Shown: piece after piece, positions 3,441 through 59,570 of the stretch | Layout of the letters: every line of letters begins with the position of its first letter | Position numbering within the stretch: the stretch's first letter is position 1 | Translations under genes and position numbers: made by a program | The notes under the pieces: model-generated | Told to the model about the DNA's origin: nothing | What the model saw: the letters and a program-made list of their open reading frames with translations, nothing else | Database searches by the model: none | Source: an uncultured Gammaproteobacteria bacterium | Lineage (GTDB): Bacteria > Patescibacteriota > Patescibacteriia > UBA9934 > GWF2-40-263 | Length of the DNA stretch: 64,000 nt | Assembly (NCBI GenBank): GCA_964402425.1 | Contig: CAYOCD010000005.1 | Span: 6,064 to 70,063, forward strand | Reading direction: 5' to 3'

Positions 3441-3482
3441 TTTTTGTAAAATTTGGGGAAATCGGGTATTCTAGACCTACTT

Positions 3483-45590: not shown

Positions 45591-45666
45591 GTCCTCGTAG
45601 CATAAATGGATAGTGCTGTAGCGTCCTAAGCTATAGATGGGGGTTCAATTCCCTCCGGGGACACCA
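45591..45666 (+). tRNA. tRNA-Arg (anticodon CCT), CCA encoded
   Basis: Acceptor GTCCTCG/CGGGGAC with one U-G pair; anticodon stem GTAGC/GCTAT with loop GTCCTAA; T-arm GGGGG-TTCAATT-CCCTC. The D-arm still needs a consistent fold. Confidence 0.82.
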
Positions 45667-45703
45667 TTTACCTGAAAATAAGCGTTTAATATTTATATCA
45701 ACG

Positions 45704-45750
45704 AAAAATTGCTGAAATGCAACTAATACATTTCAGCAATTTTTTATTTG
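45704..45750. terminator. strong bidirectional hairpin after tRNA-Arg
   Basis: 16-bp perfect stem AAAAATTGCTGAAATG / CATTTCAGCAATTTTT with a 9-nt loop and T-run. Confidence 0.65.
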
Positions 45751-46531
45751 TGGATTTTATGTGTTGTTTCGCTCAAAGTTTTACGTTTGTTTGTGTTTTT
45801 TCACGTGAAACATTTTTTTGTATGTGTGGGTGGTGTTTCTTGGCTGTAAAAATCATCATTTTAAATGAATCATTCATAATGATTGGTAATATTCTGTTTT
45901 AATCTATTTTCACACTAAAACGTTTTGTGATTATTCATGATCTTTATGCTTCAAAGCTTGTGATGCTGTTTAATGTTGATTTCAAGAGTTTTTTAGCGAT
46001 ATCTTATATATTTGATGAAATAAATAGTATTTATATTGTGTTTGATGTCAGTTGTAAATATTTATGAATTTTGAGCAGGATACGGCAAAAATATAATTCT
46101 ATAAGGAAATGAACTATTAAACGTAGTGGAAGCAAGAAATCACTTCAATGAAGTATTGTGACAATGTAATTGTTCAGTCTCTTGAATGAGATATTTTTTA
46201 AATACCAGATCATGTCTGGTATTTGTGTTTCACATGAAACGTTTGCTGATAGCTGTATGAGTGCTTGAAGTTAAACATCCACACATTCTTTGAATGGGCA
46301 GAGAAATGGATTGTGTTTGAATGTAATAAATGAAGTTGGTAAAGACGGTGTCTCTATAAGGTTTACTTATGCACAATCTGTGCCCAACTAGATAAAATAT
46401 AAGTAAATTATACACAGGTTGTCTACAATGGTGTAGACAAAAATAGTAAATTGTGGATAACTCCGGAAAAGAGCGTTTTTATGTTGTTTTCAGAATGAAT
46501 TATCGAGAAAAAAAAGGAAAAGATCATTTAT

Positions 46532-46591
46532 TTTATCTAAATTTAGCGTAAATATGGCTTGACGAAATTTGTTGTTCATGGTACACTGTGT
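46532..46591 (+). promoter_or_regulatory. surface-operon promoter with an upstream TrmB-palindrome half-site
   Basis: TTTATCTAAATTTAG (46532-46546) matches 15 of 20 positions of the 11117-11136 palindrome. It lies 12 nt upstream of TTGACG-17-TACACT (46559-46587), and the ATG is at 46608. Confidence 0.5.
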
Positions 46592-46607
46592 GGGTAAAGG
46601 TAATGAT

Positions 46608-47519
46608 ATGAGCAAGCTTGTTGCCGCCTTTGTTCTTGTGGGGTTTTTTATATACACAAATCCCGTAACAGCAGAGATGACATCCACAAACTACCAGATC
46701 CGATGGGACTCCTTAACAGAGGGGGGTTCTGATACATCCAATTCGGAGACCTACGGAGTCCATGATTCTGTAGGTGGAAATGCCCTTGGTGGTTCTACGA
46801 GTGAAAGCTATCAAACAGATAGTGGATATAGAGCAGGTATCATTGATCAGGTCATTACATTCGACATTTTGCTTCAAAATAGCTCTGACTATCGATCAGT
46901 GGATGCGCGTATCGGAACGACCGTGTCTCTTTCAAACACAACAGGACTTTCTGTGGGGGCATATATCGCACTTATGCAAGATCATGGGGAAAATCAGGTT
47001 ACAGCCGTTGGAAAGATTGTAAGTATTTCCTCAGGAGTTTCTTTGACGGTGGATTCCTGGTCAGACAATGGAACAACACCGACCATCGATGGCACAAATG
47101 ATTTACTTTATCTTTTGAATGGGTCAGCGATTGAACTTGGATGGTTGAGGTCATCAGATGTGTCAACGGCCGTTATAGGATACGAGGTTACTGCCGATCT
47201 CGATAACGGTTATTCTGTTCAACTCATGACATCAGGCAGTCTTTCAAATGGAACACAGTCAATTACAAGTGTTGCAGACGGTTCGGTCACTGTTGGGTCA
47301 GAAGAATATGGGGCACGTTCCTCGGACACAAGTATTTCGACATCCACATTTGATACGCAAGACACGGCTCTTACGACATCATTTCAAGATATTGCAACAG
47401 AATCTTCAGCAAAATATGACAATAGACATTTTCTTACATTGAAAGCAGCTGTTACGTCAGCAGCAGGAAGCGGAACTTATTCGCAATCCATCACATTGAT
47501 TGCATCCGGCAATTTCTAA
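46608..47519 (+). CDS. secreted hypothetical protein (roughly 304 aa, Ser/Thr/Gly-rich)
   Basis: Signal peptide MSKLVAAFVLVGFFIYTNPVTA; first gene of a translationally coupled 4-gene block. Confidence 0.6.
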   Translation: MSKLVAAFVLVGFFIYTNPVTAEMTSTNYQIRWDSLTEGGSDTSNSETYGVHDSVGGNALGGSTSESYQTDSGYRAGIIDQVITFDILLQNSSDYRSVDARIGTTVSLSNTTGLSVGAYIALMQDHGENQVTAVGKIVSISSGVSLTVDSWSDNGTTPTIDGTNDLLYLLNGSAIELGWLRSSDVSTAVIGYEVTADLDNGYSVQLMTSGSLSNGTQSITSVADGSVTVGSEEYGARSSDTSISTSTFDTQDTALTTSFQDIATESSAKYDNRHFLTLKAAVTSAAGSGTYSQSITLIASGNF

Positions 47520-47520
47520 T

Positions 47521-48438
47521 ATGAATGTTCGCACGATTCTTCCCTCTCTCATCCTCTTTGCTCTTCCGCATCTGGCATATGCGGCGGCTGTTTCGCCTGC
47601 GGTGATTGATCTGGAGGGTGGGCGTGGTGAAGAGGTGGAGGCAGCATTTACCGTCATCAATACACAAGCAACGGATCAAACATATTACCTCGACACCCTT
47701 TCATTTCAAGCAAAAGATGAAACGGGAGAGCCAAGATTTCTTACAGAAGAAACATCGAACGATCTTTCAACATGGGTTTCGTTTCCTCTAGATCAAATCA
47801 GTGTCCCTGCAAGATCTAAAGTGGATGTTCCCTTTTCCGTTCAAATACCGGTTGATGTTTCTTCTGGAAGTTATCAATCTGCAATCACGGTCTCGAGTGC
47901 TCCTGCAGAAGTGGTTGCAACAAACGGAGCCATTATAGAAGCAAAAACAGCAACACTTGTTTTCCTCCTTATAAAAGGAGAGACAACAAAAAAAGTTGCC
48001 TTGCTCGATTTTGTGTCAAAAGACAAGTCAATTCGATCAGATGTTCATACGTCCTTTACCTTTCGTCTGCAGAATCAGGGGAATGTATATGCTGTGCCGG
48101 AAGGACAAATCGTTTTAAAAGATCTGTTTGGTCGGAAACTTGGGGCGATTGATATCAATGAGACAAAACAACGTATTCTTCCTGCAACAACACGATCGTT
48201 TCAAGCGTCAGATCAAAAAGCGGTTGGATTTCTGGATGTCTTAAAGGATCAAATGAATCATTTCTCGATTGGTCCTGTAATAGCAACGCTTTCAATAAAC
48301 TTTGGTGAAGGATTTGAGCCCATTCAAACAACTACATCGTTCTGGTATGTGCCACATCAGTTAATTCTCTCCGTTTTTCTCTTCGTTGGACTACTTACGG
48401 TCGGGTATCAAATCCTTTCAAAACATAAAAAAACGTAG
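47521..48438 (+). CDS. secreted protein with a C-terminal TM anchor (roughly 306 aa)
   Basis: Signal peptide MNVRTILPSLILFALPHLAYA; C-terminal helix LILSVFLFVGLLTVGYQIL plus a KHKKT stop-transfer; its ATG is 1 nt after the upstream stop. Confidence 0.6.
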   Translation: MNVRTILPSLILFALPHLAYAAAVSPAVIDLEGGRGEEVEAAFTVINTQATDQTYYLDTLSFQAKDETGEPRFLTEETSNDLSTWVSFPLDQISVPARSKVDVPFSVQIPVDVSSGSYQSAITVSSAPAEVVATNGAIIEAKTATLVFLLIKGETTKKVALLDFVSKDKSIRSDVHTSFTFRLQNQGNVYAVPEGQIVLKDLFGRKLGAIDINETKQRILPATTRSFQASDQKAVGFLDVLKDQMNHFSIGPVIATLSINFGEGFEPIQTTTSFWYVPHQLILSVFLFVGLLTVGYQILSKHKKT

Positions 48439-48439
48439 T

Positions 48440-51400
48440 GTGTGCCAAAAACGCTTATCCATTATTTCGAACATTGTTTCAATCGCGGTCATTTTGACGG
48501 CGCTTGTGACGGCTGTTCGAGTGGATGCAGCAACCGTGACGAGTGCAAATGATTATGTTTCAACGCTTGTAGCGTCGGAACTCGCAAATCATGAGGTGCT
48601 CTTTACAACTCCATCAGGAATTTCAGAGGGTCAAACAGTGACGCTTACGTTTGGTTCCGGATTCACCACAACTTCTATTACAGAAGATGATGTAGATGTT
48701 GCGGATGATTCCACTGAACTTACAACAGCGGCAACTTGTGCGGGTTCTGAACAAGCTTCTGTTGCGATTGCTTCGAATATCATGACACTCACAATTTGTG
48801 CAGGTGATGGTGGTGCCATTGCAGCGACAAGTGCTGTGCGTGTTCGTATTGGAACGAATGCAACAAGTTCTGGAATAGGAATGAATCGCATGACAAATCC
48901 ATCAAGCGCAAAAAATCATTTTGTGACGATTGGTGGAACATTTGGAGATGCAGGTTCGATTGCTTTACCTGTTCAATCAAGCTCAAGTGCTGTAAGTGTG
49001 ACGGCAACGATTCCATCTGTGGGAATTTCTGCTCCAAGCGGAAATGGATGTACAGAAAACTGCAATTTTGTGAATCAACAAGATGCGACTCCGCCTGTAA
49101 TAAGTGCGGTTGTTGTTTCTGGTATGACATTAAACGGAGCAACTATTTCTTGGACAACAGATGAAAATGCAAATTCGCGCGTAAATTATGGTTTGACGAA
49201 TGAATTTGAATTGGGTTTTGTTCTTGATGCATCTCTTGTTAAAAGCCACACCGTTTCCCTTACGGGTTTGCAAGAAGGTAAGATGTACTATTTTCAAGTG
49301 AAGTCTGCGGATCAGTCGAATAACATTGCGACGTATTCGACGACCACTTTCAATACACTTGATCCAACAGCACCAGTTCTTTCCAATGTTGTTGTGACGA
49401 ACATCACACAATCTTCTGCAACGATCAGCTGGAACACAAATGAGAACACGACAAGTGTTCTTGATTATGGGCTTACAGCAAGTTATGGAACGAATTTAAT
49501 GAGTGCCGCGTTTACCCAAAATCACTCATTTCATCTTTCTGGATTACAAAGCGGAATGACATATCATTTCCGTGTGAAATCGCAAGATGCTTCTGCAAAC
49601 ATAACAACATCGACAAATCAATCGTTTGCAACGCTTGCAAATTTGGCACCAACAAACGTTGCAGCCCTCACGATTCTTCCAGGGGACAAAAAATTGACAC
49701 TTGTATGGTCAAATCCAACCGATGTGGATTTTGCTGGTGTTCGTGTTTTGCGATGTGGTTCTGGATTTCCTAGTGGTCCGACAGATATTTCCTGTTCGGT
49801 TGTTTTAGATAACAGTTTCACTCAAACACTTGTTCAAACAGGTCTCACAAACGAGACAACATATTATTATGGCGTCTTTTCAAAAGATACTACTTTGCAA
49901 TTCGCTTCTGGTGCTCTTGCTTCGGGCAAACCAAGCGCTCCAGAAATAGAGGTGCTAAGTACGTGTGGAGATTTGGTCTGTAGCGCAACAGAATCAAGCT
50001 CTTCATGTCCTGCCGATTGTTCAGTGCCTTCTCAAGGCCCTGTCTGCGGCGATGCTATTTGTGCAGGTTCCGAAACAACCACAACATGTTCGGTCGATTG
50101 TGCGGTCCAAACGCCATCGAAAACACAAACTTCTGAAACCATCGGGAGCACATGTGGAAATGGAGTGTGTAATGATTCGGAGTCAACGTTTACGTGTGCA
50201 GCTGATTGCAAGGTAACTGTACCAACAGAGTCAACAACTCCCGGGTCAGGAGTTGGAACACTTCGTTATACAGATGTGCAATTCTCTGTCGGAAACGGAG
50301 CTGTACAATTATCAAACACCAATGGTTACATAGATGTTTTGCCTCGCACACCATTGTCCGTGCGTGTGCCGGCAACAAATATTGGAATTGGTATCGATCA
50401 CGTTCGTCTTGCGATTGGTGCCGAAACGTTCATTCTGCGTCCTGTAACACGGATGAGTGCTTCATCCTTATCGGCGTCTCTTATCGTCGCCGCGTCTACA
50501 GATGACGTATCCGTTCTTTTTTACGAAGCAGATGTCTTAACACCGAGCGCATTATCGCTCAATCCTGTGACGATTTTCGTAGAGTATGAAAATGGTCAAA
50601 CGATCAACGCTTCTTCGTTTCTGCGTGTTGTCGCTCCGGGCGTCACGCATGAAATCATCGATGGAGAAGAAGCTGTCGTCGCGGGAACAACAGTAACGTT
50701 GTACCAAGTTGTCGGAACTTCTGGTTCTGTATGGGATGGGTCACCCTACAGTGCACAAAATCCAACAACAGCAACAACAAACGGATTGTTTGCGTGGTAT
50801 GTTCCAAATGGGCTTTATCGTGTCCGTGCAGAACAGGCTTTGTATGATTCAGTCGACACACCTGTGCTCGATGTGAAAAACAACATCGTCAATCCACGCA
50901 TCTTGATGACACCTCTTGTTCAAGTTGAGGAAACCCCTCTGCAAACGGCGACGGAAGCCGTGCTTGCAGCGGTCGTCAGTCAAGAAACGGTGAAACAAGT
51001 CACTATAGCAATTCAAAAAATTACAGAATCAAAACCAGTTCAAGCTGTTACCGAACAATTGGAAACAATCCGAGAAATCCCTGCTGTTCAGACAGCAGTA
51101 GACGCCTCGGTTCCAACACTGATCGTCTCTGCTGGAACAAGTGTGGTTGTGATGTCGATCGCGTTCGATTTTCTCCCGTTTGTTCAATATCTTTTTACAG
51201 CGCCTGTTCTCTTTTTAGGGCGAAGCAAACGAAAAGGATTCGGAGTGATTTATAACGCAATCAGTAAAGAGCCAATTGGCCTGGCTGTTGTGCGTCTTTA
51301 TCAGGTAAAAGATGAGCAAGAGCGAATAGGTAAATTGGTAAAAAGTCGTGTGACAGACAAAGGTGGACGATTTTATTTCTTGGTTCAACCAGGAACGTAT

Positions 51401-52030
51401 CGTTTGATGGTCACAAAAGCCGGGTTTCAGTTCCCGACTCAACATCTCACAGCCAAAAAAGAGGATGTTCAATTCACAGACTTGTACCACGGAGAATTGT
51501 TACGCGTGACAGAAGCCGATGCGGTTATTACCCCTAATATTCCGATCGATCCTTCCGTGACAGCGAAATACCAAGAGCCTAAGAATATCAAATGGCATGC
51601 GCGTTTACGCGTGATTCAGCACTCAATCGCCTTTTCCGGCGTCTTACTTTCCTTTGTTTTTGCCATTATCCGACCGAACGTGCTTGCGGCCGCGATGGTG
51701 CTTCTCCAAATTGGAATCTATTTATTTGTGCAACGACTCGCAAAACCTCGCAAACCAAAATCTTGGGGGATTGTTTATGACAAGAAGACCGGACGCCCCG
51801 TTTCAAACGTGGTTGCTCGTATCTTCGAGCCTAAATATAACAAGCTTCTTGAAACACAAGTTACCGACAGCAAAGGACGATACTCCTTCCTTCTCGGGCC
51901 GGCTGAGTACTATGCCGTGTTTGAAAAGGAAGGGTATCGATCCACTCAAGTGAGTCCAATCGATTTCTCAAAAGATAAAGAGGCAAAAGATTTCTCCATG
52001 GATATTCGTTTGTTAACCAAAGAGACATAA
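48440..52030 (+). CDS. giant surface protein 1 (roughly 1196 aa): signal peptide, FN3-like domains, three Cys-rich repeats, carboxypeptidase-regulatory-like domains and C-terminal TM helices
   Basis: GTG start 1 nt after the upstream stop gives the signal peptide MCQKRLSIISNIVSIAVILTALVTAVRVDA. FN3-like ...ATISWTTDENANSRVNYGLT... twice. Repeats CGDLVCSATESSSSCPADC / CGDAICAGSETTTTCSVDC / CGNGVCNDSESTFTCAADC. ...GRFYFLVQPGTYRLMVTKAGFQ... and ...GRYSFLLGPAEYYAVFEKEGYRS...; hydrophobic helices near the C-terminus. Confidence 0.7.
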   Translation: MCQKRLSIISNIVSIAVILTALVTAVRVDAATVTSANDYVSTLVASELANHEVLFTTPSGISEGQTVTLTFGSGFTTTSITEDDVDVADDSTELTTAATCAGSEQASVAIASNIMTLTICAGDGGAIAATSAVRVRIGTNATSSGIGMNRMTNPSSAKNHFVTIGGTFGDAGSIALPVQSSSSAVSVTATIPSVGISAPSGNGCTENCNFVNQQDATPPVISAVVVSGMTLNGATISWTTDENANSRVNYGLTNEFELGFVLDASLVKSHTVSLTGLQEGKMYYFQVKSADQSNNIATYSTTTFNTLDPTAPVLSNVVVTNITQSSATISWNTNENTTSVLDYGLTASYGTNLMSAAFTQNHSFHLSGLQSGMTYHFRVKSQDASANITTSTNQSFATLANLAPTNVAALTILPGDKKLTLVWSNPTDVDFAGVRVLRCGSGFPSGPTDISCSVVLDNSFTQTLVQTGLTNETTYYYGVFSKDTTLQFASGALASGKPSAPEIEVLSTCGDLVCSATESSSSCPADCSVPSQGPVCGDAICAGSETTTTCSVDCAVQTPSKTQTSETIGSTCGNGVCNDSESTFTCAADCKVTVPTESTTPGSGVGTLRYTDVQFSVGNGAVQLSNTNGYIDVLPRTPLSVRVPATNIGIGIDHVRLAIGAETFILRPVTRMSASSLSASLIVAASTDDVSVLFYEADVLTPSALSLNPVTIFVEYENGQTINASSFLRVVAPGVTHEIIDGEEAVVAGTTVTLYQVVGTSGSVWDGSPYSAQNPTTATTNGLFAWYVPNGLYRVRAEQALYDSVDTPVLDVKNNIVNPRILMTPLVQVEETPLQTATEAVLAAVVSQETVKQVTIAIQKITESKPVQAVTEQLETIREIPAVQTAVDASVPTLIVSAGTSVVVMSIAFDFLPFVQYLFTAPVLFLGRSKRKGFGVIYNAISKEPIGLAVVRLYQVKDEQERIGKLVKSRVTDKGGRFYFLVQPGTYRLMVTKAGFQFPTQHLTAKKEDVQFTDLYHGELLRVTEADAVITPNIPIDPSVTAKYQEPKNIKWHARLRVIQHSIAFSGVLLSFVFAIIRPNVLAAAMVLLQIGIYLFVQRLAKPRKPKSWGIVYDKKTGRPVSNVVARIFEPKYNKLLETQVTDSKGRYSFLLGPAEYYAVFEKEGYRSTQVSPIDFSKDKEAKDFSMDIRLLTKET

Positions 52031-52042
52031 TTAAACGGAGGT

Positions 52043-55000
52043 ATGTTTACGCAATGGCGAAAACAATTTGTTTCAACACTCCTTGTCGTCACTTTTTTTG
52101 TGGCGATGATTAGTGTTGCACAAGCGGCAATCGCACCTCCGAATATTTTGAGTTATCAAGGGCGATTATTAAACTCAAATGGTGTTCCGGTGACAAGTTC
52201 AACGGCTTCCATTAAGTTTAAATTATACGATTCCGCATCTGGCGGAACGTGTTTGTGGTCAAACTCGAGTTCAACCTGTGCGACGGAAACCGCTCATACA
52301 GTGACATTGAGTTCGGGTTTGTTCAGTGAAAATTTAGGTGATACGGCTGCAAGTTATGCAGCCATCCCAAGTACGGTTTTTGCAGACAATGCAGCTGTAT
52401 ATCTTGGAATTACAATTGGTTCTGATTCAGAAATGTCGCCACGCAAACGCATGACAGCTGCACCTTATGCGTTGAATGCACAAACATTAGATGGTTTGGA
52501 TTCTACAAGTTTTATGCAAACGGGGGTTGCTATTTCTGGAGCATCACCATTTGTTTTTGAAGGTGCGATCGATGACGCATTTGAAACAACGTTTGCCATT
52601 ACAAATCCAACAGCAGGAAATACAATCACGTTTAAAAATGGTTCTGGAACAGTTGCTTTTTTATCAGACATTACAAATATATCAGCGGATTCGTTGAATT
52701 TTACAGATTTTGCGGATGCATTAACGCTTGATGCTGCTACGACAATTTCAGGAAACATACTTTCATTAAATGAAAACTCAAATTTTGCTGTAAACATTAA
52801 TACGGGTACATCAAGTGGAGCTCTAACGTTAGGTGGAGGGTCAGGAACTGTTGCCATTAATTCTTCTGATTGGGATATTGATGCAACAGGGGTGATGACA
52901 GGTATAGGCAACACAACAATTGATGGAAAAATTTCCGTGAACCCAGCTCTTATCAGTTTACCGGTTCAAGATGGATCAACATCTACTCAATGGGGGGCTC
53001 TTTTTGGTGAATCTGCATCTACAGTTACATATACGGGCGGACAAGCTTCAGAATCCTTGTTCATGTTTAACGGTTTTGCTCAGCCAACACTTGAGTCATC
53101 GGTGACAACAGCATTTACAAATGCGGCAACGATGTATATTGCAAACGCACCAGTCGCAGGAACAAATACGACCATTTTAAATCCGTATGCCCTTGTTGTC
53201 GCGGCAGGGAATACAAAACTCGGAGGTGATTTGGCATTAAATGGTGGAAACATGACCACCTCTTCTTCAACATTTAATTTGATCGATAGCGTTACAACAT
53301 TAAGCATTGGAGCTTCGGCAACAGAAATAGATATCGCAAATAATAACGGACTCGGACACACAATTAAGATTGGAGGAAATACAGACACAAACTTGATCCG
53401 AATCGGTTCCTCTGCGGAAGATGGGGGAAACACAGCTGCAGACACAATTAGAATTGCAACAGGATCAGGAGGGGCAGACACAATCCAAATTGGTAACAGT
53501 AATGCTTCTACCCTCTTGTCTCTTACAGGAGGTGATGATTGGTCCATCACTTCTGCCGGAGTTCTTACGGTTGCATCCTGTTCTGGTTGTTCCGGGGGTG
53601 GATTTGTAGATGGAAATGTTACATCTCCTTCGATTGCTTTTTCAGCAGACGCAAGCGCAGATACAGGGTTTTACCGTATTGGTGAAAACAATATTGGTGT
53701 TGCAACAAATGGAGTAAAAGTTGTTGATATCGGAGCAACAACAATTGATCTTGGTGCAACCACCGCAACAACTCTTCATCTTGGTGCGGGTGGTGCAATC
53801 GCACGCGCAATTAATATTGGTACAGGAACAGGTGCTGACACGATCACTATTGGAGGCGGAACAACAGGCGCAGACACAATCCATATTGGAAATAACCTCA
53901 CCAACCTCTCCTCGATCGTCATTGGTGGAACGGGATTTACGACAAATTCTATTGCAATTGGAGCAGACCTTTGGAAAATTTCTGCAGATGGCGTAGCATC
54001 TTTTGATTCAATTGCTTCAACATCAACCAGTGCGACGGTTTCACTTTTTACAACCCTTGCTGCAGGGGGTGTCTTAGATTTTGCTGATGCAACTCCAACA
54101 TTGAATATTCAAAAAGGAGCTGGGTCACATACATTAAATATTGGTGGTACAGGAGCCGATACAATTTCCATCGCAACAAACAACACAACTTCTGATACTG
54201 TATTCATTGGAAATACGGCCTTAGTAACAAATGTCTCTTTGACGGGAGGAAGTGCGGGTGGAGTTTTTATTAATGATTTTGCTGGAACAACAAAAACATA
54301 TATTGGTGGAAATGGGGGATTTGACGGAACAGATACTGTGCAAATCTCAACAGACGCAACATCTGCAGACACCTTAACATTCGGAAATGCAAACACAGGA
54401 ACAACACTTGCGTTAACAGGAGGTAATGATTGGAGTATTACAACCGCAGGCGCGTTATCTATTGGAGTTGGGGGAAAATTTACAGTCGCTGCAACAGGAA
54501 TTGCCGCCGCTAATTTAAATGCAACCGCAACAACAAACGGTTTGTGTCACAGTGGGGCAAACGTTGATGCGGCAACAGATACAACACGCGATCTTGTTGC
54601 TTGTAGCGGTGCGCCGGGTGACTATGCGGAGTGGCATGAAACGGACGGAACTGTTCAAAGCGGTGACATTGTTGCGGTAACAGGCGGAACATTTACATAT
54701 AGCGCATCAGAGAGCGATGCATTTACAGGAGAAATTTTGCCAGAAAAAACACAAAAGACCCTTCCTATTTTGACCGCAGCAACATCAAACCAAAGCGAAG
54801 ATGTTCTTGGAGTTGTTTCCACATCTCCAAACCAAACCATCGGATCGGATGTGCGCGATCAAGGTGCACACCCACAACCAATTGCTCTTGTTGGGCGTGT
54901 TCCTGTGAATGTGACAAATGAAAATGGTTCGATTCAAGTTGGTGATTACATTACAACATCTTCTGTTCCTGGAAAAGGAATGAAAGCAACGCTTGCCGGG

Positions 55001-56614
55001 CGTGTTATCGGTATTGCTCTTACAGGAATGAGTGGTGCAAGCGGACAGGTCACTGTGCAGGTAACAAACTCTTGGTATTTTGGAGCCCTCATTGGAAATG
55101 ACGGAACATCCACATTACTTACAGATACGGTTGTTGTTGCTCCTCTCCAAAATGCTTCAGCCTCCACACAAACATTTGATTCCTATGGCCTCGCTCTTCG
55201 CGGATCGGCTTGGGATGGAAATCAAGCACAAGCTGTTTCCATGATGTTTAAAAATAAAGTAACAGACGGAACAAATTATCGACTGTCTGTTCGTAACACA
55301 ACAGACAGTGAGGTTGCCTACATCACAAATACAGGAACCATGCAGGTTGCAGGAGATATGGTTGTTGGTGGAAAGATTTATCCATCAAACTTGGGTGGAA
55401 TTCAAACAGACAAATATATCTATTATGACGGTTCTACAGGACCAGGCGGAGACTTCATGCGAACAAACGCAAGTGGATGGTCAACGGGATCTTATGACTT
55501 TGCCGAAATGTTCCCATCAAGCGATTCGCTTGTTCCGGGTGATGTGGTTGTATTCTCATCGACAAACATTCACGTAAAACGATCAACAAAGAAAGACGAG
55601 AAATCGATCGCGGGTATCGTTTCCACACGTCCAGGATTCCTTGCAGGTGAAAATACGCCAGGATCTTATCCTATCGCTCTTGCGGGTCGTGTGCCAACAA
55701 ACGTAAACAATGAAAATGGTTCCATTGCTGTTGGTGATCCGCTTACAACATCTAGCGCATCTGGTGTTGCCATGAAGGCAACGGAGCCAGGCCCAATCGT
55801 TGGGTATGCTCTTGAACCATTCGATGGAACAAATGGATCCATTACCGTTTTTGTCAGTGCAGGATATTGGGGAGGGGACGCAACAAGTTCTACACCTGGT
55901 GCGGATAATCGAGCGTCGCTGTTTGGATCTTCGCATAGCGAATCGATGACCATGCTCTCCATGAGTGGAAATATCAACATGAACGGAAATGAGATTTCAA
56001 ATATTGGACGCATGGCCGGCCTCTCAAATTCATGGAGTATTGAAGTGGATGGAACAATCAAAACAGAAGCATTGTTGAAGACGGTGATTGTCGGACAAAA
56101 TAATCAAAAAGTTGAGACGATCGCCACAACATCACCAGAAGCTATCATTACACTTTCTGGGTCATCTACCTTAAAGGACGGAATGGTGGAAGTTCGATTC
56201 GTAGATGTGAACAAAGATTTTGGAAACGTGATTTCAGCTATTGCTCCGATTCGTGTGGTTGCAACACCAAATGGTCCAGTCTCTTTGTATGTCTCTGAAA
56301 AAGATCAAAATCACTTTGTCGTAAAGAGTTTTGGCGGAAATGCATCGGATGTTGAGTTCGATTGGGTGGTTACAGGATACAGAAAAGGATTTGAACCAAA
56401 AGAGACAACAAATGCACAAGCATCTGTTGCTGCAGAGTCTTTCTCTGAGTCGAATTTGATCCAGAGCTCTGAGCAAGAAACAACAAGCGTTGTTTCCGAA
56501 ACAAATACGGTAGAACTTTCAGATGTTTCAGCATCCTCGCCGAGTGCGAGCACAACAACTGTCGATCCTTCCGTGATAAACGTCGATGCACTCGCGCCGA
56601 CGCTTTCACCTTGA
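52043..56614 (+). CDS. giant surface protein 2 (1523 aa): secreted fibrous/tail-fibre-like repeat protein
   Basis: Signal peptide ...FFVAMISVAQA; N-terminal ...ILSYQGRLLNSNGVPV...FKLYDSASGG..LWS...LNAQTLDGLDSTSF...; Gly/Thr/Ala-rich beta-helix-like repeats (...LSLTGGDDWSITSAGVLTV... / ...LALTGGNDWSITTAGALSI...); duplicated C-terminal module D[YF]AE[WM]...GD[IV]V...IALxGRVPxNVxNENGSIxVGD...MKAT. Confidence 0.7.
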   Translation: MFTQWRKQFVSTLLVVTFFVAMISVAQAAIAPPNILSYQGRLLNSNGVPVTSSTASIKFKLYDSASGGTCLWSNSSSTCATETAHTVTLSSGLFSENLGDTAASYAAIPSTVFADNAAVYLGITIGSDSEMSPRKRMTAAPYALNAQTLDGLDSTSFMQTGVAISGASPFVFEGAIDDAFETTFAITNPTAGNTITFKNGSGTVAFLSDITNISADSLNFTDFADALTLDAATTISGNILSLNENSNFAVNINTGTSSGALTLGGGSGTVAINSSDWDIDATGVMTGIGNTTIDGKISVNPALISLPVQDGSTSTQWGALFGESASTVTYTGGQASESLFMFNGFAQPTLESSVTTAFTNAATMYIANAPVAGTNTTILNPYALVVAAGNTKLGGDLALNGGNMTTSSSTFNLIDSVTTLSIGASATEIDIANNNGLGHTIKIGGNTDTNLIRIGSSAEDGGNTAADTIRIATGSGGADTIQIGNSNASTLLSLTGGDDWSITSAGVLTVASCSGCSGGGFVDGNVTSPSIAFSADASADTGFYRIGENNIGVATNGVKVVDIGATTIDLGATTATTLHLGAGGAIARAINIGTGTGADTITIGGGTTGADTIHIGNNLTNLSSIVIGGTGFTTNSIAIGADLWKISADGVASFDSIASTSTSATVSLFTTLAAGGVLDFADATPTLNIQKGAGSHTLNIGGTGADTISIATNNTTSDTVFIGNTALVTNVSLTGGSAGGVFINDFAGTTKTYIGGNGGFDGTDTVQISTDATSADTLTFGNANTGTTLALTGGNDWSITTAGALSIGVGGKFTVAATGIAAANLNATATTNGLCHSGANVDAATDTTRDLVACSGAPGDYAEWHETDGTVQSGDIVAVTGGTFTYSASESDAFTGEILPEKTQKTLPILTAATSNQSEDVLGVVSTSPNQTIGSDVRDQGAHPQPIALVGRVPVNVTNENGSIQVGDYITTSSVPGKGMKATLAGRVIGIALTGMSGASGQVTVQVTNSWYFGALIGNDGTSTLLTDTVVVAPLQNASASTQTFDSYGLALRGSAWDGNQAQAVSMMFKNKVTDGTNYRLSVRNTTDSEVAYITNTGTMQVAGDMVVGGKIYPSNLGGIQTDKYIYYDGSTGPGGDFMRTNASGWSTGSYDFAEMFPSSDSLVPGDVVVFSSTNIHVKRSTKKDEKSIAGIVSTRPGFLAGENTPGSYPIALAGRVPTNVNNENGSIAVGDPLTTSSASGVAMKATEPGPIVGYALEPFDGTNGSITVFVSAGYWGGDATSSTPGADNRASLFGSSHSESMTMLSMSGNINMNGNEISNIGRMAGLSNSWSIEVDGTIKTEALLKTVIVGQNNQKVETIATTSPEAIITLSGSSTLKDGMVEVRFVDVNKDFGNVISAIAPIRVVATPNGPVSLYVSEKDQNHFVVKSFGGNASDVEFDWVVTGYRKGFEPKETTNAQASVAAESFSESNLIQSSEQETTSVVSETNTVELSDVSASSPSASTTTVDPSVINVDALAPTLSP

Positions 56615-56657
56615 AGTGTCGTGTTCTTTCTGTGTCCACAATTTCATAACAAAAAAT

Positions 56658-56685
56658 ACACGCTCCCCACGCGTGTGTTTTTTGT
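56658..56685 (+). terminator. terminator closing the surface operon
   Basis: ACACGC-TCCCCAC-GCGTGT followed by GTTTTTTGTT. Confidence 0.6.
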
Positions 56686-56707
56686 TCTGTATCGCTCGTG
56701 TTAAAAT

Positions 56708-59053
56708 GTGTCCATTATGAATCGTACACTTTCTCTTTCCCTTCAGCTTTTGCAGTCAGCTCGATGGGTGTTTCTTTCGTTCATTTTTTTATTTCCACTT
56801 TTTTTCCTTCCATTTACCTTGGGGCCGCTTGAAATCAATAAACAAACATTGTTGCTACTTTCTGTTTGTGCGTCTCTCGTTTTGCTTATTGGGGCGTTTT
56901 TATTAAAAAAAGAGGTTCGTCTCAGATTCGGATGGGTGCATGTGTTCCCGCTTTTGATGGTCGGAGTGTTTATTGCGTCTGCTTTTTTTTCGCTCGCGCC
57001 ATATACATCTTGGGTTGGAACAAATGGTTCGGAATACATGAGTGTTCTTACTTGGATCGGTCTCGCTCTCTTGTTTTATCTCTGTACATTGTTTGCCTCT
57101 GAACTTTCTTTATCTCGTTTGCCTTGGGTGGTACTTACGTTCAGTGCAAGTTTGGTTGGTCTTTTTGGTGTCTTGTCTTTGTTTGGAGTTTCAATCCTTC
57201 CATTTTTCCCTGCGCTTGCTGTGTCTGCGTTTAATACAATTGGAACCGTTAATACATTTGCTGTTTTTCTTATCTGTGTGAGTTTGCTTGCGTGTACACG
57301 ACTCATGACAGATTCGATTTCTGTAAAAAAAAGTTGGAAACGCGTTGCTCTGATGACGGGAATCGGGCTTGTTTTTTTAGAAATGTTTATCGTTTTGCTT
57401 TTATTGGATTATGCACTGCTTTGGATGTTGCTTTTATTCGGGTGTGCATCTATTTTTACATTTGTTTTGTTCCGATCCCGAACCTTTCCATCTCTAAAAA
57501 CGCTTTTTATCCCCGTTATCTTCACAGTTTTGAGCCTTCTTTTTTGGCTCTTCTTACCAAGTCCGTTTCAAACGAAGCTTCCTCTCGAAGTTTCGCCTTC
57601 ATTCAAAACAAGTTTATTTATTTCAGACTCAGTTTTACGTAATCGACCCATGTTTGGATCAGGTCCTGGAACCTATGCCATGGATTACACCAAATATCAT
57701 CCGCTCTCCATCAATGAAACAGATTTTTGGAATACACGCTTTGATCGTGCGTCCTCGTTTGTCTTAACGCTTGCACCAACGGTAGGGTATTTTGGTATCG
57801 GTGTGTATCTTTTTTTCATTCTTTTTCTGTTTTACGAATCTGTATCAAACCTTATAAGACAAAAACAAGAAGAAGAATGGATTGATGTGTTTCATGTGTT
57901 TATACCTTGGCTTGCGATTGTGCTTGCCTCGTTTTTGTTTGCCTTTAATATAACCCTTGTTATCACGCTCATACTTTTGTCTGGGTTGCTTGCGTCAAAA
58001 TTGATTCAAAAAGAGTCCCATCTTACATTTTCTCATAATAAGTTCATTGCTCTTTTGTCTGCTGGTTGTTTTATTGCCTTACTTTTTTCTTTGTTCATCG
58101 GTATCTTTTTGACAACAGGTCGATACGCTGCTGAAACTGCTTATGCAAAAGCGGTTCGTGCAGATCGTTCGCATACAGAGACAAAAACCATTGTGACAGA
58201 GCTTGATCGTGCCGCAACGCTCAATCAATGGAATGATGATTATGTACGGAATTTGTCCGCGGCTCTTTTGCTGCGCGTTCAAGATGAATTAAAAACTGTT
58301 TCGCCTAATAGTCCGCTTTCAGATGTCTCAAAACAGTATTTGCGAGCACTTATGGCTGCATCAATAAATGCCTCTGCACGCGCAACAGAATTATCCCCGA
58401 ATAATGTATCTAACTGGCTTGCCCGCGGAGAAGTTTATAGATCCTTATCTGGACTTGTTGATAAAGCAGCAAATTTTTCTCTTGATGCCTATACACACGC
58501 AATCGATCTAGAGCCCACAAATCCAAGTCATTGGATGGAACGCGGAAAAACACACATGACGCTTGCAGATCTTTCGCAGCCCCTTATGGTGTCTTCGGAT
58601 GTTCATGTTATGGCTCAGGCAAAGAAAGATTGGGAGACGGCGCTTGGTGAAGCAAAAAAAGATTTTACAAAAGCAACAGAATTAAAATCCAATTTTGCTC
58701 CAGCTCATTATCAACTTGCTCTTGTGTATGAACGCGAAGGAAATCTTGATCTTGCAATTTCAAAATTAGAAAGTGTTCAGAAATATAACGATACAGACAT
58801 TGGAGTCGGATTCATGCTCGGTACGCTGTATACCAAGCGTGGGAGCACGGGGGATTTTGAACGGGCCAAACAAACATTTTTGCATGTGATCGCTCTTGCT
58901 CCTTCTTATAGTGACGCGCATTGGTTTCTTGCTTCTATTTATGAAAAATTCGGAGATAAAACACGTGCTATCGCAGAAATTGAAACTGTGTTGAAATTAA
59001 ATCCGGATAATCAGATCATTAAAACACGTTTAGAAAAACTAAAAAGACCATAA
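56708..59053 (+). CDS. O-antigen ligase/polymerase-like polytopic membrane protein with C-terminal TPR repeats
   Basis: 781 aa: about 12 TM helices, then TPR-like repeats (...ARGEVYRSLSG...AYTHAIDLEPTNPSHWMERGKTHM...HYQLALVYEREGNLDLAISKLESV...). Confidence 0.7.
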   Translation: MSIMNRTLSLSLQLLQSARWVFLSFIFLFPLFFLPFTLGPLEINKQTLLLLSVCASLVLLIGAFLLKKEVRLRFGWVHVFPLLMVGVFIASAFFSLAPYTSWVGTNGSEYMSVLTWIGLALLFYLCTLFASELSLSRLPWVVLTFSASLVGLFGVLSLFGVSILPFFPALAVSAFNTIGTVNTFAVFLICVSLLACTRLMTDSISVKKSWKRVALMTGIGLVFLEMFIVLLLLDYALLWMLLLFGCASIFTFVLFRSRTFPSLKTLFIPVIFTVLSLLFWLFLPSPFQTKLPLEVSPSFKTSLFISDSVLRNRPMFGSGPGTYAMDYTKYHPLSINETDFWNTRFDRASSFVLTLAPTVGYFGIGVYLFFILFLFYESVSNLIRQKQEEEWIDVFHVFIPWLAIVLASFLFAFNITLVITLILLSGLLASKLIQKESHLTFSHNKFIALLSAGCFIALLFSLFIGIFLTTGRYAAETAYAKAVRADRSHTETKTIVTELDRAATLNQWNDDYVRNLSAALLLRVQDELKTVSPNSPLSDVSKQYLRALMAASINASARATELSPNNVSNWLARGEVYRSLSGLVDKAANFSLDAYTHAIDLEPTNPSHWMERGKTHMTLADLSQPLMVSSDVHVMAQAKKDWETALGEAKKDFTKATELKSNFAPAHYQLALVYEREGNLDLAISKLESVQKYNDTDIGVGFMLGTLYTKRGSTGDFERAKQTFLHVIALAPSYSDAHWFLASIYEKFGDKTRAIAEIETVLKLNPDNQIIKTRLEKLKRP

Positions 59054-59064
59054 TGTTCTATCCA

Positions 59065-59098
59065 CACCCGCACCTTGTGTCTGCGGGTGTTTTTGTTT
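59065..59098 (+). terminator. rho-independent terminator
   Basis: CACCCGCA-CCTTGTGTC-TGCGGGTG followed by TTTTTGTTT. Confidence 0.65.
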
Positions 59099-59252
59099 AG
59101 CATATTTTTTGTAAAATGTGCACGGCTCTTTTATGCTCCGAAACCTCGCGCACACGCCGATCATCCATAAATGCCTAGTCCTCGCATATTGAGGACGCGA
59201 GCGCACAAAAGCTACCATTAAAGGTAAGCCAGGTTGGCAGATGGAGGTCCCA

Positions 59253-59426
59253 ATGCGGAAGCATGAATTGTCGGAAGCGTTTTACCAGTTTGGAATCGGT
59301 GGTTGCCGTGCTCCGGAAGTCCCAAGTCCGTTTTCTTTGCCTTCGCGTGAAACCCTTTGGGATAAAACGCCGCACAAGAATCCGGTACGTAAGACCAAGG
59401 TGCCAGTCTATCCCTATGCCTACTGA
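59253..59426 (+). CDS. small hypothetical protein (57 aa)
   Basis: GGAGG 5 nt upstream of the ATG; no recognisable family; low-confidence gene. Confidence 0.3.
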   Translation: MRKHELSEAFYQFGIGGCRAPEVPSPFSLPSRETLWDKTPHKNPVRKTKVPVYPYAY

Positions 59427-59570
59427 GTGCATCCTCACGATTCTTTGAAAGAAGGGTCGTTTTTTATTGCATAATCGGTTGACAGCTCTGTGACTTGGCG
59501 AGGGGTGTGTGTTGTGTTATCCTCTGACCTTGTTCTTTTTATTGGAGGAATCTTGGAATCACATAAACAC

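What the first reader, a model, noticed from the sequence alone, without database searches (positions are those of the whole stretch)
45591..59053. tRNA-Arg-flanked 12.5-kb cell-surface locus: four translationally coupled genes (two giant) plus an O-antigen-ligase-TPR protein
Seen in sequence: downstream of tRNA-Arg(CCT), a 16-bp-stem terminator and an 0.86-kb AT-rich non-coding region lie four genes separated by only 1, 1 and 12 nt, one using a GTG start. They encode two roughly 300-aa secreted or anchored proteins and two fibrous giants of roughly 1196 and 1523 aa with FN3, Cys-repeat, CarboxypepD_reg-like and tail-fibre-like repeats. A polytopic Wzy/O-antigen-ligase-like protein with TPR repeats, with its own terminator, follows. 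No sortase, LPXTG, pilin or phage structural genes accompany them. Inference: this is a dedicated and probably horizontally variable adhesion or host-attachment apparatus, with a glycosylating or polymerising membrane partner and its own regulator site (see the palindrome finding). It is not a described pilus, S-layer or secretion system. A tRNA-Arg gene is a classic island integration site.
Basis: partly seen in the sequence, partly recalled or inferred. Interest (0 to 1): 0.8.

Follow-up and report, generated by a model that had tools for sequence, protein, structure and literature searches.

The report
Pam-like pilus/fibre operon of Uhrbacteria
This is a conserved five-gene cell-surface cassette of an ultra-small (CPR, Uhrbacteria) bacterium: a divergent, stripped-down relative of the "Pam" pilus described in 2026, coupled to a giant tail-fibre-like adhesin, and not a mobile island.

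Summary
Two labels fail.

- **Not an island.** Uhrbacteria relatives at 53-75% identity keep the same order, polA-holA-rpsT-rmuC-tRNA-Arg-g1-g2-g3-g4(-g5). I found no tRNA repeat, no integrase among the Pfam-scanned flanking ORFs, and no composition shift.
- **g5 is not shown to be Wzy/O-antigen ligase.** Pfam, NCBIfam, a PDB profile search and 120 homologues give only TPR.

The genes are best read as follows.

- **g1** is a sub-threshold homologue of Pam pilins (PamT-like N-terminal module plus Pam pilin C-domain).
- **g2** is a two-Ig-domain, C-terminally membrane-anchored protein. It resembles WxLIP and the PapD/CfaA/CsuC chaperones.
- **g3** starts with a Pam-type pilin N-domain and linker strand but has no acceptor domain. 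FN3 domains, Cys repeats and a conserved membrane module follow.
- **g4** is a MAT-like fibre with a hypervariable middle.

Eighty metagenome loci repeat the cassette. My best reading is a chaperone-assisted, donor-strand-joined tip (g1) on a membrane-anchored stalk (g3) that presents the g4 fibre. This is a new variant of a recently described kind.

The parts
45591..45666 (+). tRNA-Arg(CCT). It is a conserved neighbour of the cassette, not an integration site.
   Evidence: ARAGORN. The same tRNA sits just upstream of the g1 homologue in L001-L005. Its 3' end is not repeated anywhere in the window.
45704..45744 (+). Intrinsic-terminator-like hairpin after the tRNA: 16-bp stem, 9-nt loop, T-run.
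   Evidence: I1, 100% complementary; sequence.
46225..46240 (.). Conserved palindromic box GTTTCACATGAAAC, a candidate regulator site. A second copy, TTTCACGTGAAA, lies at 45799-45810.
   Evidence: The box is identical over 16 nt in L004 and 90% identical over 20 nt in L002. The motif TTTCACRTGAAA occurs at 3 sites in the window against 0.09 expected.
46419..46607 (+). Conserved upstream/promoter region of g1, including the promoter-like TTGACG-17-TACACT at 46559-46587.
   Evidence: The 46419-46689 alignment, which begins at this region and runs 82 nt into g1, is 80% identical to L002; 46530-46699 is 73% identical to L004. Promoter scan.
46608..47519 (+). g1, a Pam-family tip-type pilin of 303 aa. 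Layout: signal peptide (aa 1-23); conserved PamT-like N-module with three S-x-x-Y repeats (aa 24-82, nt 46677-46853); inserted small beta-barrel (aa 83-169, nt 46854-47114); Pam pilin C-terminal acceptor domain ending ...IASGNF-COOH (aa 170-303, nt 47115-47516).
47521..48438 (+). g2, a membrane-anchored two-Ig-domain chaperone/anchor of 305 aa (WxLIP- and PapD-like). Layout: signal peptide, domain 1 (aa 23-125), conserved hairpin (aa 121-146), domain 2 (aa 143-276), C-terminal TM helix (aa 279-304).
   Evidence: AF2 pLDDT 88. Foldseek against PDB: WxLIP 9i25/9i1y at E 3e-11, then CfaA, CsuC, DraB, Caf1M, SafB and CupB2. Pfam fn3_5 hits 24 of 48 and WxLIP_PGBD 9 of 48 family members. The family profile matches EfmWxLIP1 at E 1.2e-3.
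48440..52030 (+). g3, the stalk/anchor protein of 1196 aa. Layout: signal peptide; Pam-type pilin N-domain plus linker strand AVSVTATIPS (aa 27-215, nt 48518-49084), with no pilin C-domain; three FN3 domains (about aa 229-500, nt 49124-49939); three Cys repeats (aa 509-590, nt 49964-50209); beta-rich region; conserved membrane module TM-CarboxypepD_reg-2TM-CarboxypepD_reg (aa 880-1196, nt 51077-52027).
   Evidence: Pfam. Its N-domain is 39% identical (E 6e-24) to the N-domain of the two-domain pilin L012_385 and aligns through the linker strand. The C-terminal module is conserved in A6 and in 111 metagenome relatives.
52043..56614 (+). g4, a giant fibre protein of 1523 aa. Layout: conserved MAT_N-like N-terminal domain (aa 1-246, nt 52043-52780); hypervariable repeat-rich middle (about aa 330-825, nt 53030-54517); conserved C-terminal part (aa 825-1506, nt 54515-56560); S/T-rich tail.
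   Evidence: NCBIfam Bdello_MAT_N at E 1.2e-6, below the cut-off, and likewise in 4 homologues. Mosaic conservation and total lengths of 1523, 2040, 2585 and 3199 aa.
56658..56683 (+). Terminator-like hairpin ACACGC...GCGTGT plus T7 between g4 and g5.
   Evidence: found on the minus-strand scan; sequence.
56708..59053 (+). g5, a polytopic membrane protein with TPR repeats (781 aa from GTG 56708; probably 778 aa from ATG 56717). Features: about 13 TM segments; a conserved first external loop (D)PLEINKQ; a large loop at aa 284-357 containing FGSGPGTY and FDR; TPRs at about aa 560-781. It is conserved directly downstream of g4-type genes.
   Evidence: Synteny in L006, L007, L008, L012 and L013. 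In the census g5 follows g4 in 14 of 19 judgeable loci.
59066..59098 (+). Intrinsic terminator after g5: CACCCGCA...TGCGGGTG followed by TTTTTGTTT.
   Evidence: Sequence read directly.

Best explanation
The locus is the Uhrbacteria version of a widespread CPR surface-appendage cassette related to the Pam pilus. The proposed mechanism is set out below, with shown and inferred steps marked.

**Export (inferred).** All four products are exported by Sec.

**g2, the chaperone.** It has a PapD/WxLIP-like two-Ig fold and is held in the membrane by its C-terminal helix (fold and helix shown). It is proposed to bind the incomplete Ig-like C-domain of g1 with its conserved hairpin (inferred).

**g1, the tip.** It is a PamT-type subunit that can accept a donor strand but has no Pam-type linker strand of its own (shown by sequence).

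**g3, the stalk and anchor.** It supplies what g1 lacks: a Pam pilin N-domain followed by the linker strand 'VSVTATIP'. It then continues into about 650 aa of FN3, Cys-repeat and beta-rich domains, and a conserved polytopic membrane module (all shown by sequence). The proposal is that g3's linker strand replaces the chaperone strand in g1's groove (inferred). The product would be one joint: g1 capping a long stalk that is itself the membrane anchor. That corresponds to the PamT tip placed directly on a PamR/PapH-like terminator, with no polymerising major pilin.

**g1's N-module.** Its conserved, intrinsically unfolded N-module would then sit at the distal end. In some lineages the same module is fused directly to g3, and those lineages lack g1 and g2 next to g3 (shown).

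**g4, the fibre.** It is a fibre, presumed trimeric by analogy with MAT proteins (not tested), with a conserved MAT_N-like base and a hypervariable shaft. It is the probable host-binding element and may dock on this tip (weakly supported inference).

**g5.** It is a separately terminated membrane-TPR protein that follows g4-type genes. It acts on or with the fibre; its chemistry is unknown and may involve glycan transfer.
For: **Homology of g1 to Pam pilins**
- NCBIfam PamT and Pam_pilin_C hit g1 and hit 51 and 45 of its 51 family members.
- A g1-family profile search finds 1288 representatives. These include 210-240-aa proteins with PamT architecture and 320-406-aa two-domain pilins, which also hit the Pam models.

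**Fold evidence**
- The g1 C-domain resembles donor-strand pilins.
- g2's best matches are WxLIP and the chaperone-usher chaperones, with sequence support.
- g1's exact C-terminus ...I-A-S-G-N-F is nearly invariant. This is expected if the carboxylate is bound by a chaperone, as in chaperone-usher pilins (my own knowledge).

**g3 as a donor-only subunit**
- Its N-domain and linker strand align with two-domain pilins, then diverge into FN3 domains.

**Census of 80 metagenome loci anchored on the g3 membrane module**
- A chaperone gene lies upstream in 40 of 40 loci where g3 starts with an N-domain plus linker.
- It lies upstream in 6 of 6 loci where mature g3 starts with a bare 'V.V.ATVP' strand, as described for PamR.
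- It lies upstream in 14 of 16 other types.
- It is absent immediately upstream in all 3 judgeable loci where g3 itself carries the N-module (L090, L081, L013). Fisher p = 2e-4, without phylogenetic correction.

**Other links**
- Chaperone and g3 are fused in one ORF in two lineages (L039/L040, L086).
- A g4N-type gene follows g3 in 55 of 72 loci, and g5 follows g4 in 14 of 19.
- The N-module co-occurs with g4N-type genes: 35 of 39 against 3 of 7, p = 0.012.
- The preprint describes the same logic (tip PamT, TM-anchored chaperones, tether PamR with an N-terminal strand and FnIII domains) and notes a tail-fibre-like gene central to pam neighbourhoods.
- The MAT paper states that the N-terminal domain of MAT fibres must bind an unidentified surface element.
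Against: - No complex was modelled or observed, so every contact (g2-g1, g3-g1, N-module-g4) is inferred.
- All Pam-model hits are far below NCBI's curated cut-offs: 49.5 bits against 240, and 25 against 55.
- g2 and g3 hit no Pam-specific model.
- PamR is a 33-kDa protein, very unlike the 1196-aa g3. g3 is at most a functional analogue.
- The N-module could itself be a donor strand, which would make g1 self-polymerising.
- The census loci are phylogenetically related, so the Fisher tests overstate independence.
- Only three N-module-type g3 loci were judgeable.
Confidence: 0.55

Rival explanations
1. **True polymeric Pam-type pilus.** g1 is a self-polymerising major pilin whose conserved N-terminal module acts as an N-terminal donor extension, as in classical chaperone-usher pilins. 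g2 is its chaperone. g3 only terminates and anchors the filament.
For: - The N-module is highly conserved yet unfolded in the monomer model. This is typical of a donor strand.
- It contains an alternating hydrophobic pattern, N-Y-x-I-x-W.
- g1 is the first gene of the operon and would be the most abundant product.
- Pam pili are filaments.
Against: - In the Pam family the donor is the linker between the N- and C-domains. PamT, to which g1's N-module is homologous, is described as a non-donating tip.
- Cassettes that do have a two-domain pilin (N-domain, linker, C-domain) carry it in addition to a PamT-like gene (L010, L012, L060, L066, L079). The window lacks one.
- The N-module also occurs at the tip of g3-type stalks in loci with no acceptor pilin nearby.
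Confidence: 0.2
2. **WxL-type static cell-surface complex.** g2 is not a transient chaperone but a permanent membrane anchor that holds g1 on the cell surface by strand insertion, like WxLIP holding WxL proteins in Firmicutes. g3 and g4 are independent adhesins that merely share the operon.
For: - WxLIP is the best structural and the only significant sequence match of g2.
- WxLIP is proposed to bind and stabilise its partner on the surface through a DUF916 hairpin (PMC10599100).
- WxL clusters also pair a small and a large surface protein.
Against: - g1-g4 have no WxL motif and no LPXTG partner.
- g1 is homologous to Pam pilins, which do assemble by strand exchange.
- This model does not explain why g3 begins with a pilin N-domain and linker, or with a bare donor-like strand, exactly when a C-domain pilin and a chaperone are present.
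Confidence: 0.15
3. **Horizontally acquired adhesion island at tRNA-Arg, or a domesticated prophage tail module.**
For: - The locus sits next to a tRNA gene, after a long AT-rich spacer.
- g4 varies in length and has a tail-fibre-like N-terminus.
Against: - Synteny from polA to g5, including the tRNA, is conserved in relatives down to 53% identity.
- There is no direct repeat of the tRNA end.
- No integrase is present among the Pfam-scanned flanking ORFs, and no phage gene is present among g1-g5.
- GC and GC3 equal the flanks.
- The cassette occurs in at least 80 further metagenome loci.
Confidence: 0.03

Closest known systems
Pam pili of Candidatus Mycosynbacter amalyticus (Saccharimonadia), bioRxiv 10.64898/2026.03.03.709456; NCBIfam NF058579 (PamT) and NF058581 (Pam pilin C-domain)
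   Same: - It is specific to CPR bacteria.
- Subunits are Sec-exported and have a truncated-Ig C-domain.
- The chaperone is PapD-like and carries a C-terminal TM helix.
- There is no usher.
- The tether has a donor strand, FnIII domains and a TM anchor.
- A tail-fibre-like gene and MFS genes lie nearby.
- g1 and its family are detectably homologous to PamT and to the Pam pilin C-domain.
   Different: - The lineage is different: Uhrbacteria in the Parcubacteria group, against mostly Saccharimonadia and Microgenomatia in the preprint.
- All hits are below the curated cut-offs.
- There is one pilin and one chaperone, instead of PamA/B/E/T plus PamC/D.
- No polymerising two-domain pilin is present.
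- g1 carries an inserted beta-barrel.
- The pilin N-domain and linker sit on a 1196-aa stalk/anchor with a polytopic membrane module and two CarboxypepD_reg domains, whereas PamR is 33 kDa.
- The cassette is tightly coupled to a giant fibre gene and a membrane-TPR gene.
WxL / WxLIP (DUF916-DUF3324) cell-surface complexes of Enterococcus and lactobacilli (PMC10599100; PDB 9i1y, 9i25)
   Same: g2 has the WxLIP architecture: signal peptide, two Ig-like domains, a conserved hairpin and a C-terminal TM helix. WxLIP is its best fold match and its only PDB sequence match.
   Different: - No WxL-domain protein and no LPXTG protein is present.
- The partner g1 is a Pam-type pilin.
- The host is a CPR bacterium, not a Firmicute.
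Chaperone-usher pili (Pap/Fim, CFA/I, archaic Csu)
   Same: - Chaperone fold (CfaA, CsuC, Caf1M, DraB and others).
- Pilin-like incomplete Ig domain.
- Donor-strand logic.
- A terminator that can donate but not accept a strand (PapH-like role proposed for g3).
   Different: - There is no outer membrane and no usher.
- The chaperone is membrane-anchored.
- The donor is a linker strand after an N-domain, not an N-terminal extension.
- The appendage is probably not polymeric here.
Bdellovibrio MAT (mosaic adhesive trimer) fibres (PMC10769870; NCBIfam NF053851)
   Same: g4 shares a conserved N-terminal domain (sub-threshold homology) followed by a long mosaic fibre. Both occur in organisms that attach to other bacteria. 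In Bdellovibrio the partner of the N-terminal domain is unknown.
   Different: - In g4 the variable part is the middle, and the C-terminal ~680 aa are conserved. In MATs the tip varies.
- No S74 chaperone domain was detected.
- g4 is encoded inside a pilin/chaperone/anchor cassette.
O-antigen ligase/Wzy_C-TPR proteins and GT-C glycosyltransferases with TPR domains such as TMTC (comparison for g5, from my own knowledge)
   Same: Many TM segments, a conserved acidic first external loop, a large external loop and a C-terminal TPR domain predicted to lie outside the cell.
   Different: No sequence-level match to Wzy_C, PMT/GT-C or any solved structure. Membership is unproven.

Membership tests
Pam pilus system (CPR) | Pilin with the Pam C-terminal truncated-Ig acceptor domain (NF058581) | tested here: met
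   g1 aa 171-303 cover profile positions 2-148 of 148 at E 1.2e-5. 45 of 51 family members hit, best 2e-12. Fold matches to donor-strand pilins. The curated cut-off is a separate row.
Pam pilus system (CPR) | Score above NCBIfam curated cut-offs (PamT 240 bits; Pam_pilin_C 55 bits) | tested here: not met
   49.5 and 25.4 bits. All relatives examined are also sub-threshold.
Pam pilus system (CPR) | PapD/FimC-like chaperone with a C-terminal transmembrane helix (PamC/PamD) | tested here: met
   g2 AF2 model: two beta-sandwich domains plus a helix at aa 279-304. Foldseek hits chaperone-usher chaperones and WxLIP at E 1e-8 to 3e-11. No direct comparison with PamC/D sequences was possible.
Pam pilus system (CPR) | Polymerising two-domain pilins (N-domain, linker donor strand, C-domain; PamA/PamB) | tested here: not met
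   The 64-kb window holds only one gene with a pilin C-domain. g1 has no N-domain or linker. Two-domain pilins are present in related cassettes L010, L012, L060, L066 and L079.
Pam pilus system (CPR) | Tether with an N-terminal donor strand, FnIII domains and a membrane anchor (PamR) | tested here: inconclusive
   g3 has a pilin N-domain plus linker strand, three FN3 domains and TM segments. It is 1196 aa with extra domains, whereas PamR is 33 kDa. No sequence comparison with PamR was possible.
Pam pilus system (CPR) | Extracellular filament assembled by donor-strand exchange | not testable with these tools
   Needs multimer modelling or cryo-EM.
Chaperone-usher pili | Outer-membrane usher | tested here: not met
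   Neither Pfam nor NCBIfam finds an usher family in g1-g5 or in the Pfam-scanned flanking ORFs.
WxL/WxLIP surface complex | WxLIP protein (DUF916 + DUF3324 + TM helix) | tested here: met
   Foldseek top hits 9i25_C and 9i1y. WxLIP_PGBD hits 9 of 48 family members. Profile against EfmWxLIP1 at E 1.2e-3.
WxL/WxLIP surface complex | Partner proteins with a C-terminal WxL domain (dual W-x-L motif), and a small LPXTG protein | tested here: not met
   No W-x-L or LPXTG motif in g1-g4. No Pfam WxL hit.
O-antigen ligase / Wzy_C (PF04932), for g5 | Match to the Wzy_C domain or to a solved O-antigen ligase | tested here: not met
   No Pfam hit for aa 1-520 even at E <= 10. NCBIfam gives only TPR families. 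None of 120 homologues carries PF04932. No PDB match by single sequence or by profile.
Bdellovibrio MAT fibres, for g4 | Conserved MAT N-terminal domain (NF053851) | tested here: inconclusive
   E 1.2e-6 but 28 bits against a cut-off of 60. Similar sub-threshold hits in g4 homologues of L006, L010 and L012.
Bdellovibrio MAT fibres, for g4 | Trimeric beta-prism fibre with a variable C-terminal tip, with or without an S74 chaperone domain | not testable with these tools
No Peptidase_S74 Pfam hit. In g4 the C-terminal 680 aa are conserved and the middle varies.
tRNA-linked genomic island | Integrase, a direct repeat of the tRNA 3' end, patchy presence among relatives, deviant composition | tested here: not met
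   No integrase in the Pfam-scanned flanking ORFs. No repeat. Conserved synteny including the tRNA. GC and GC3 as in the flanks.
Sortase-dependent pili | LPXTG sorting signals | tested here: not met
   No LPXTG motif in g1-g5. The SpaA/SdrD_B hits of g3 are its CarboxypepD_reg-type prealbumin domains. Whether a sortase gene lies elsewhere in the window was not checked.

The most novel reading that the evidence does not exclude
Three linked claims.

1. The cassette builds a non-polymeric appendage. A single PamT-like cap (g1) is joined by chaperone-assisted donor-strand complementation to a covalent multi-domain stalk (g3) that is also the membrane anchor.
2. The cap's conserved N-module is the docking site for MAT-type fibres (g4). 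That would identify the partner of the MAT N-terminal domain, which is unknown in Bdellovibrio.
3. CPR Pam chaperones and Firmicute WxLIP proteins form one ancient family of membrane-anchored strand-donating chaperones in bacteria without an outer membrane.
Probability: 0.25. Interest if true: 0.75.

Novelty: new variant of a known kind. Interest (0 to 1): 0.55.

Why it matters
CPR/Patescibacteria are thought to live attached to host cells, and how they attach is largely unknown outside Saccharibacteria. Five points follow from this locus.

- It extends the newly described Pam system to Uhrbacteria (Parcubacteria group). There it escapes NCBI's curated cut-offs, and sources that name g1 and g2 call them 'hypothetical protein'.
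- The system is modular. Depending on lineage, the tip module is delivered on a separate pilin with a chaperone, or fused directly to the stalk.
- The CPR chaperone is tied by fold and by weak sequence similarity to the WxLIP proteins of Firmicutes.
- A hypervariable MAT-like fibre is placed in the same operon, giving a testable candidate for what anchors such fibres.
- The variable middle of g4 is a natural candidate determinant of host range.

Tried and rejected
- **Island signatures.** I searched for a repeat of the tRNA 3' end and for an integrase among the Pfam-scanned flanking ORFs, and compared composition. All were negative.
- **Remnant gene in the spacer.** A relative (L002) has a HAD hydrolase ORF between the tRNA and g1. 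tblastn found no remnant in the window's 0.86-kb spacer. Rfam found no RNA family there.
- **Phage origin.** No PHROG hit for g1-g4.
- **g5 as Wzy_C.** Pfam at E <= 10, NCBIfam, PDB by single sequence and by profile, and the annotations of 120 homologues were all negative.
- **g4 identity.** Pfam on five fragments and PDB profile searches of its N- and C-terminal parts found nothing.
- **g1 and g2 against PDB by single sequence.** Nothing found. A g1-family profile against PDB also found nothing, so the Pam pilin structures are either not in the copy or too distant.
- **g3 N-domain against the L010 386-aa pilin by BLAST.** No similarity. The link was later found through L012_385 and P0457-type pilins.
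- **Pam-specific chaperone or tether models in NCBIfam.** None hit g2, g3 or their relatives.
- **M. amalyticus pam operon.** I could not fetch it for a direct comparison.

Full report
**Observation.** The described anatomy is present at the stated coordinates.
- tRNA-Arg(CCT) is at 45591-45666. A perfect 16-bp hairpin with a T-run follows at 45704-45744.
- Next come 863 nt of GC ~0.36 DNA. It has no ORF of 80 aa or more, only short ORFs of up to 65 aa, and no Rfam family match with E <= 0.01 apart from the tRNA.
- Four plus-strand genes follow: g1 46608-47519 (303 aa), g2 47521-48438 (305 aa), g3 48440-52030 (1196 aa, GTG start) and g4 52043-56614 (1523 aa, GGAGG upstream). They are separated by 1, 1 and 12 nt.
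- g3 has FN3 domains, three Cys repeats and two CarboxypepD_reg domains.
- A hairpin plus T-run follows g4 (56658-56683). Then comes g5 (56708 or ATG 56717, to 59053), which is polytopic with C-terminal TPRs and has a strong terminator at 59066-59098.
- There is no LPXTG motif and no PHROG hit.

**Not an island.**
- The closest g1 homologues come from Candidatus Uhrbacteria in the Parcubacteria group.
- In relatives whose g1 is 75% and 53% identical, the order is the same. The closer relative reads TrmB-polA-holA-SNase-rpsT-rmuC-tRNA-Arg(CCT)-g1-g2-g3-g4; the more distant one lacks the TrmB and SNase genes.
- g5 follows g4 in three further Uhrbacteria genomes at 42-80% identity.
- The tRNA 3' end is not repeated.
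- The Pfam-scanned flanking ORFs are housekeeping or transporter genes and none is an integrase. GC and GC3 match the flanks.
- What varies is the middle of g4. The N-terminal ~210-330 aa and C-terminal ~680 aa are conserved at 48-79% identity. Total length is 1523, 2040, 2585 or 3199 aa.

**g1 and g2.**
- NCBIfam (June 2026) contains models for a 'CPR-type pilus'. g1 hits PamT over aa 4-76 at E 3.6e-13. It hits the Pam pilin C-domain over aa 171-303, covering the full profile, at E 1.2e-5. Both hits are far below the curated cut-offs. All 51 aligned family members hit PamT and 45 hit the C-domain model.
- The source is a 2026 preprint on Ca. Mycosynbacter amalyticus. It describes pilins PamA/B with an N-domain, a linker donor strand and a truncated-Ig C-domain. 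It also describes a tip PamT, TM-anchored PapD-like chaperones PamC/D, and a tether PamR with an N-terminal strand, FnIII domains and a TM helix. A tail-fibre-like gene and MFS genes lie in the neighbourhood.
- The g1 AF2 model is confident for aa 80-303: a small beta-barrel followed by the C-domain. It leaves the strongly conserved aa 24-79 disordered.
- The g2 model (pLDDT 88) has two Ig-like domains and a C-terminal TM helix. Its best matches are E. faecium WxLIP at E 3e-11, then CfaA, CsuC, DraB, Caf1M and SafB. Sequence support comes from Pfam WxLIP_PGBD in 9 of 48 family members and from a profile match to EfmWxLIP1 at E 1.2e-3, across the conserved hairpin.
- WxLIP is proposed to insert a hairpin strand into its partner (PMC10599100).

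**g3 and the wider cassette.**
- A g1-family profile search finds 1288 cluster representatives. Among them are 210-240-aa proteins with the N-module plus C-domain (PamT architecture, without g1's barrel) and 320-406-aa two-domain pilins. Two large proteins share only the N-module.
- Those two large proteins are g3-like stalk/anchor proteins carrying the N-module at their own N-terminus. In L013 such a g3 is followed by g4- and g5-like genes, with no pilin or chaperone.
- The window's g3 instead starts with a domain 39% identical (E 6e-24) to the N-domain of a two-domain pilin, L012_385. It aligns with such pilins through the linker strand: VVVSATVDPT or VAISATVTSA in the pilins, AVSVTATIPS in g3. 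After the linker the pilins continue into the C-domain, whereas g3 continues into FN3 domains.
- The most conserved part of g3 is its C-terminal module: TM, RRKRK, CarboxypepD_reg, two TM, KPRKPK, CarboxypepD_reg.
- A metagenome scan with that module gave 111 relatives, of which 80 loci were kept. In a domain-HMM census:
  - a chaperone gene lies upstream in 40 of 40 loci with N-domain-type g3, usually together with an N-module+barrel+C-domain pilin like g1;
  - it lies upstream in 6 of 6 loci where mature g3 starts with a bare 'V.V.ATVP' strand;
  - it lies upstream in 14 of 16 other types;
  - it is absent in all 3 judgeable loci where g3 itself carries the N-module. Fisher p = 2e-4, not corrected for relatedness.
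- The chaperone and g3 are fused into one ORF in two lineages.
- A g4N-type gene follows g3 in 55 of 72 loci, and g5 follows g4 in 14 of 19.

**g4 and g5.**
- g4's N-terminal domain gives sub-threshold hits to the N-terminal domain of Bdellovibrio MAT fibres, in the window and in four homologues. That domain is described as cell-proximal and as binding an unknown surface element (PMC10769870). Nothing else in g4 matches Pfam, PHROGs or PDB sequences.
- g5's membrane domain matches no family and no solved structure. All 120 listed homologues carry only TPR Pfams.
- From hydropathy and the positive-inside rule, I infer about 13 TM segments, with the first loop ((D)PLEINKQ), the large loop (FGSGPGTY...FDR) and the TPRs outside the cell. 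This layout is compatible with a glycan-transfer enzyme, but that is not evidence for one.

**Mechanism proposed.**
- Shown: the homologies and folds of g1 and g2; the domain order of g3; and the cassette conservation, with its split or fused N-module pattern.
- Inferred:
  - g2 holds g1 by strand complementation.
  - g3's linker strand replaces it, leaving g1 as a cap on a stalk that is its own membrane anchor. This equals a PamT tip placed directly on a terminator, with no polymerising pilin.
  - The distal N-module docks the g4 fibre. This is the weakest step; co-occurrence is 35 of 39 against 3 of 7, p = 0.012.
  - g5 services the fibre.

**Rivals.**
- A true g1 homopolymer using the N-module as donor strand (0.2).
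- A WxL-like static complex in which g2 permanently anchors g1 (0.15).
- An island or prophage remnant (0.03).

**Novelty.** The kind is known: the Pam pilus (2026 preprint, with NCBIfam models) and WxLIP/chaperone-usher logic. This locus is a distinct variant for five reasons.
- It occurs in a different CPR lineage.
- It scores below the curated thresholds.
- It has a single barrel-bearing tip pilin and a single chaperone.
- Its giant stalk/anchor carries the pilin N-domain and linker.
- It has obligatory MAT-like fibre and membrane-TPR partners.

Interest is moderate. The mechanistic reading is testable, but here it rests on comparative inference only.

Noticed in passing
window 45799-45810, 46228-46239 and 23446-23457: The palindromic box TTTCAC(R)TGAAA occurs three times in the window against 0.09 expected, twice upstream of g1. 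The 46225-46240 copy is conserved in relatives L002 and L004 and may be a transcription-factor site.
   Followed up: partly
window 59100-59465: A GC-richer stretch between the g5 terminator and the first MFS gene is 71% identical over ~410 nt to the same position in L006. It ends in a terminator-like hairpin at 59437-59460. It has no Rfam match and only an 87-aa minus-strand ORF, so it may be a degenerate gene or an unknown RNA.
   Followed up: partly
window 51077-52027 (g3 aa 880-1196); alignment A6: Each of the two CarboxypepD_reg domains of g3 follows a TM segment and a strongly basic patch (RSKRK in the window, RRKRK in most relatives; KPRKPK). They are therefore probably cytoplasmic, which is unusual for this domain. 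They form the most conserved part of the protein across at least 111 relatives. Their function is unexplained.
   Followed up: partly
L012 15939-16304: In a Patescibacteria genome (GCA_004297215.1) a 121-aa four-helix-bundle protein sits between the PamT-like gene and the two-domain pilin gene. It matches TIGR02436 / the 23S rRNA IVS protein family and weakly matches the DGR protein Avd. This may hint at a diversity-generating retroelement near pilus genes.
   Followed up: no
L039/L040 4050-7490 / 2031-5471; L086 8267-10963: In two lineages the chaperone and the g3-type stalk are encoded as one ORF: chaperone, TM, basic loop, second TM/signal, g3.
   Followed up: partly
L002 9054-9707 compared with window 45745-46607: A close relative carries a 217-aa HAD-family hydrolase ORF between the tRNA-Arg and g1. 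The window has only non-coding DNA there, with no detectable remnant.
   Followed up: yes
L009 284-5966: A distant cassette (pilin, chaperone, g3-like, LTD protein) lies a few kb from six genes with T4SS_pilin Pfam hits.
   Followed up: no
window 59490-62062: Two MFS transporter genes follow the cassette. [quoted passage not shown]
   Followed up: no
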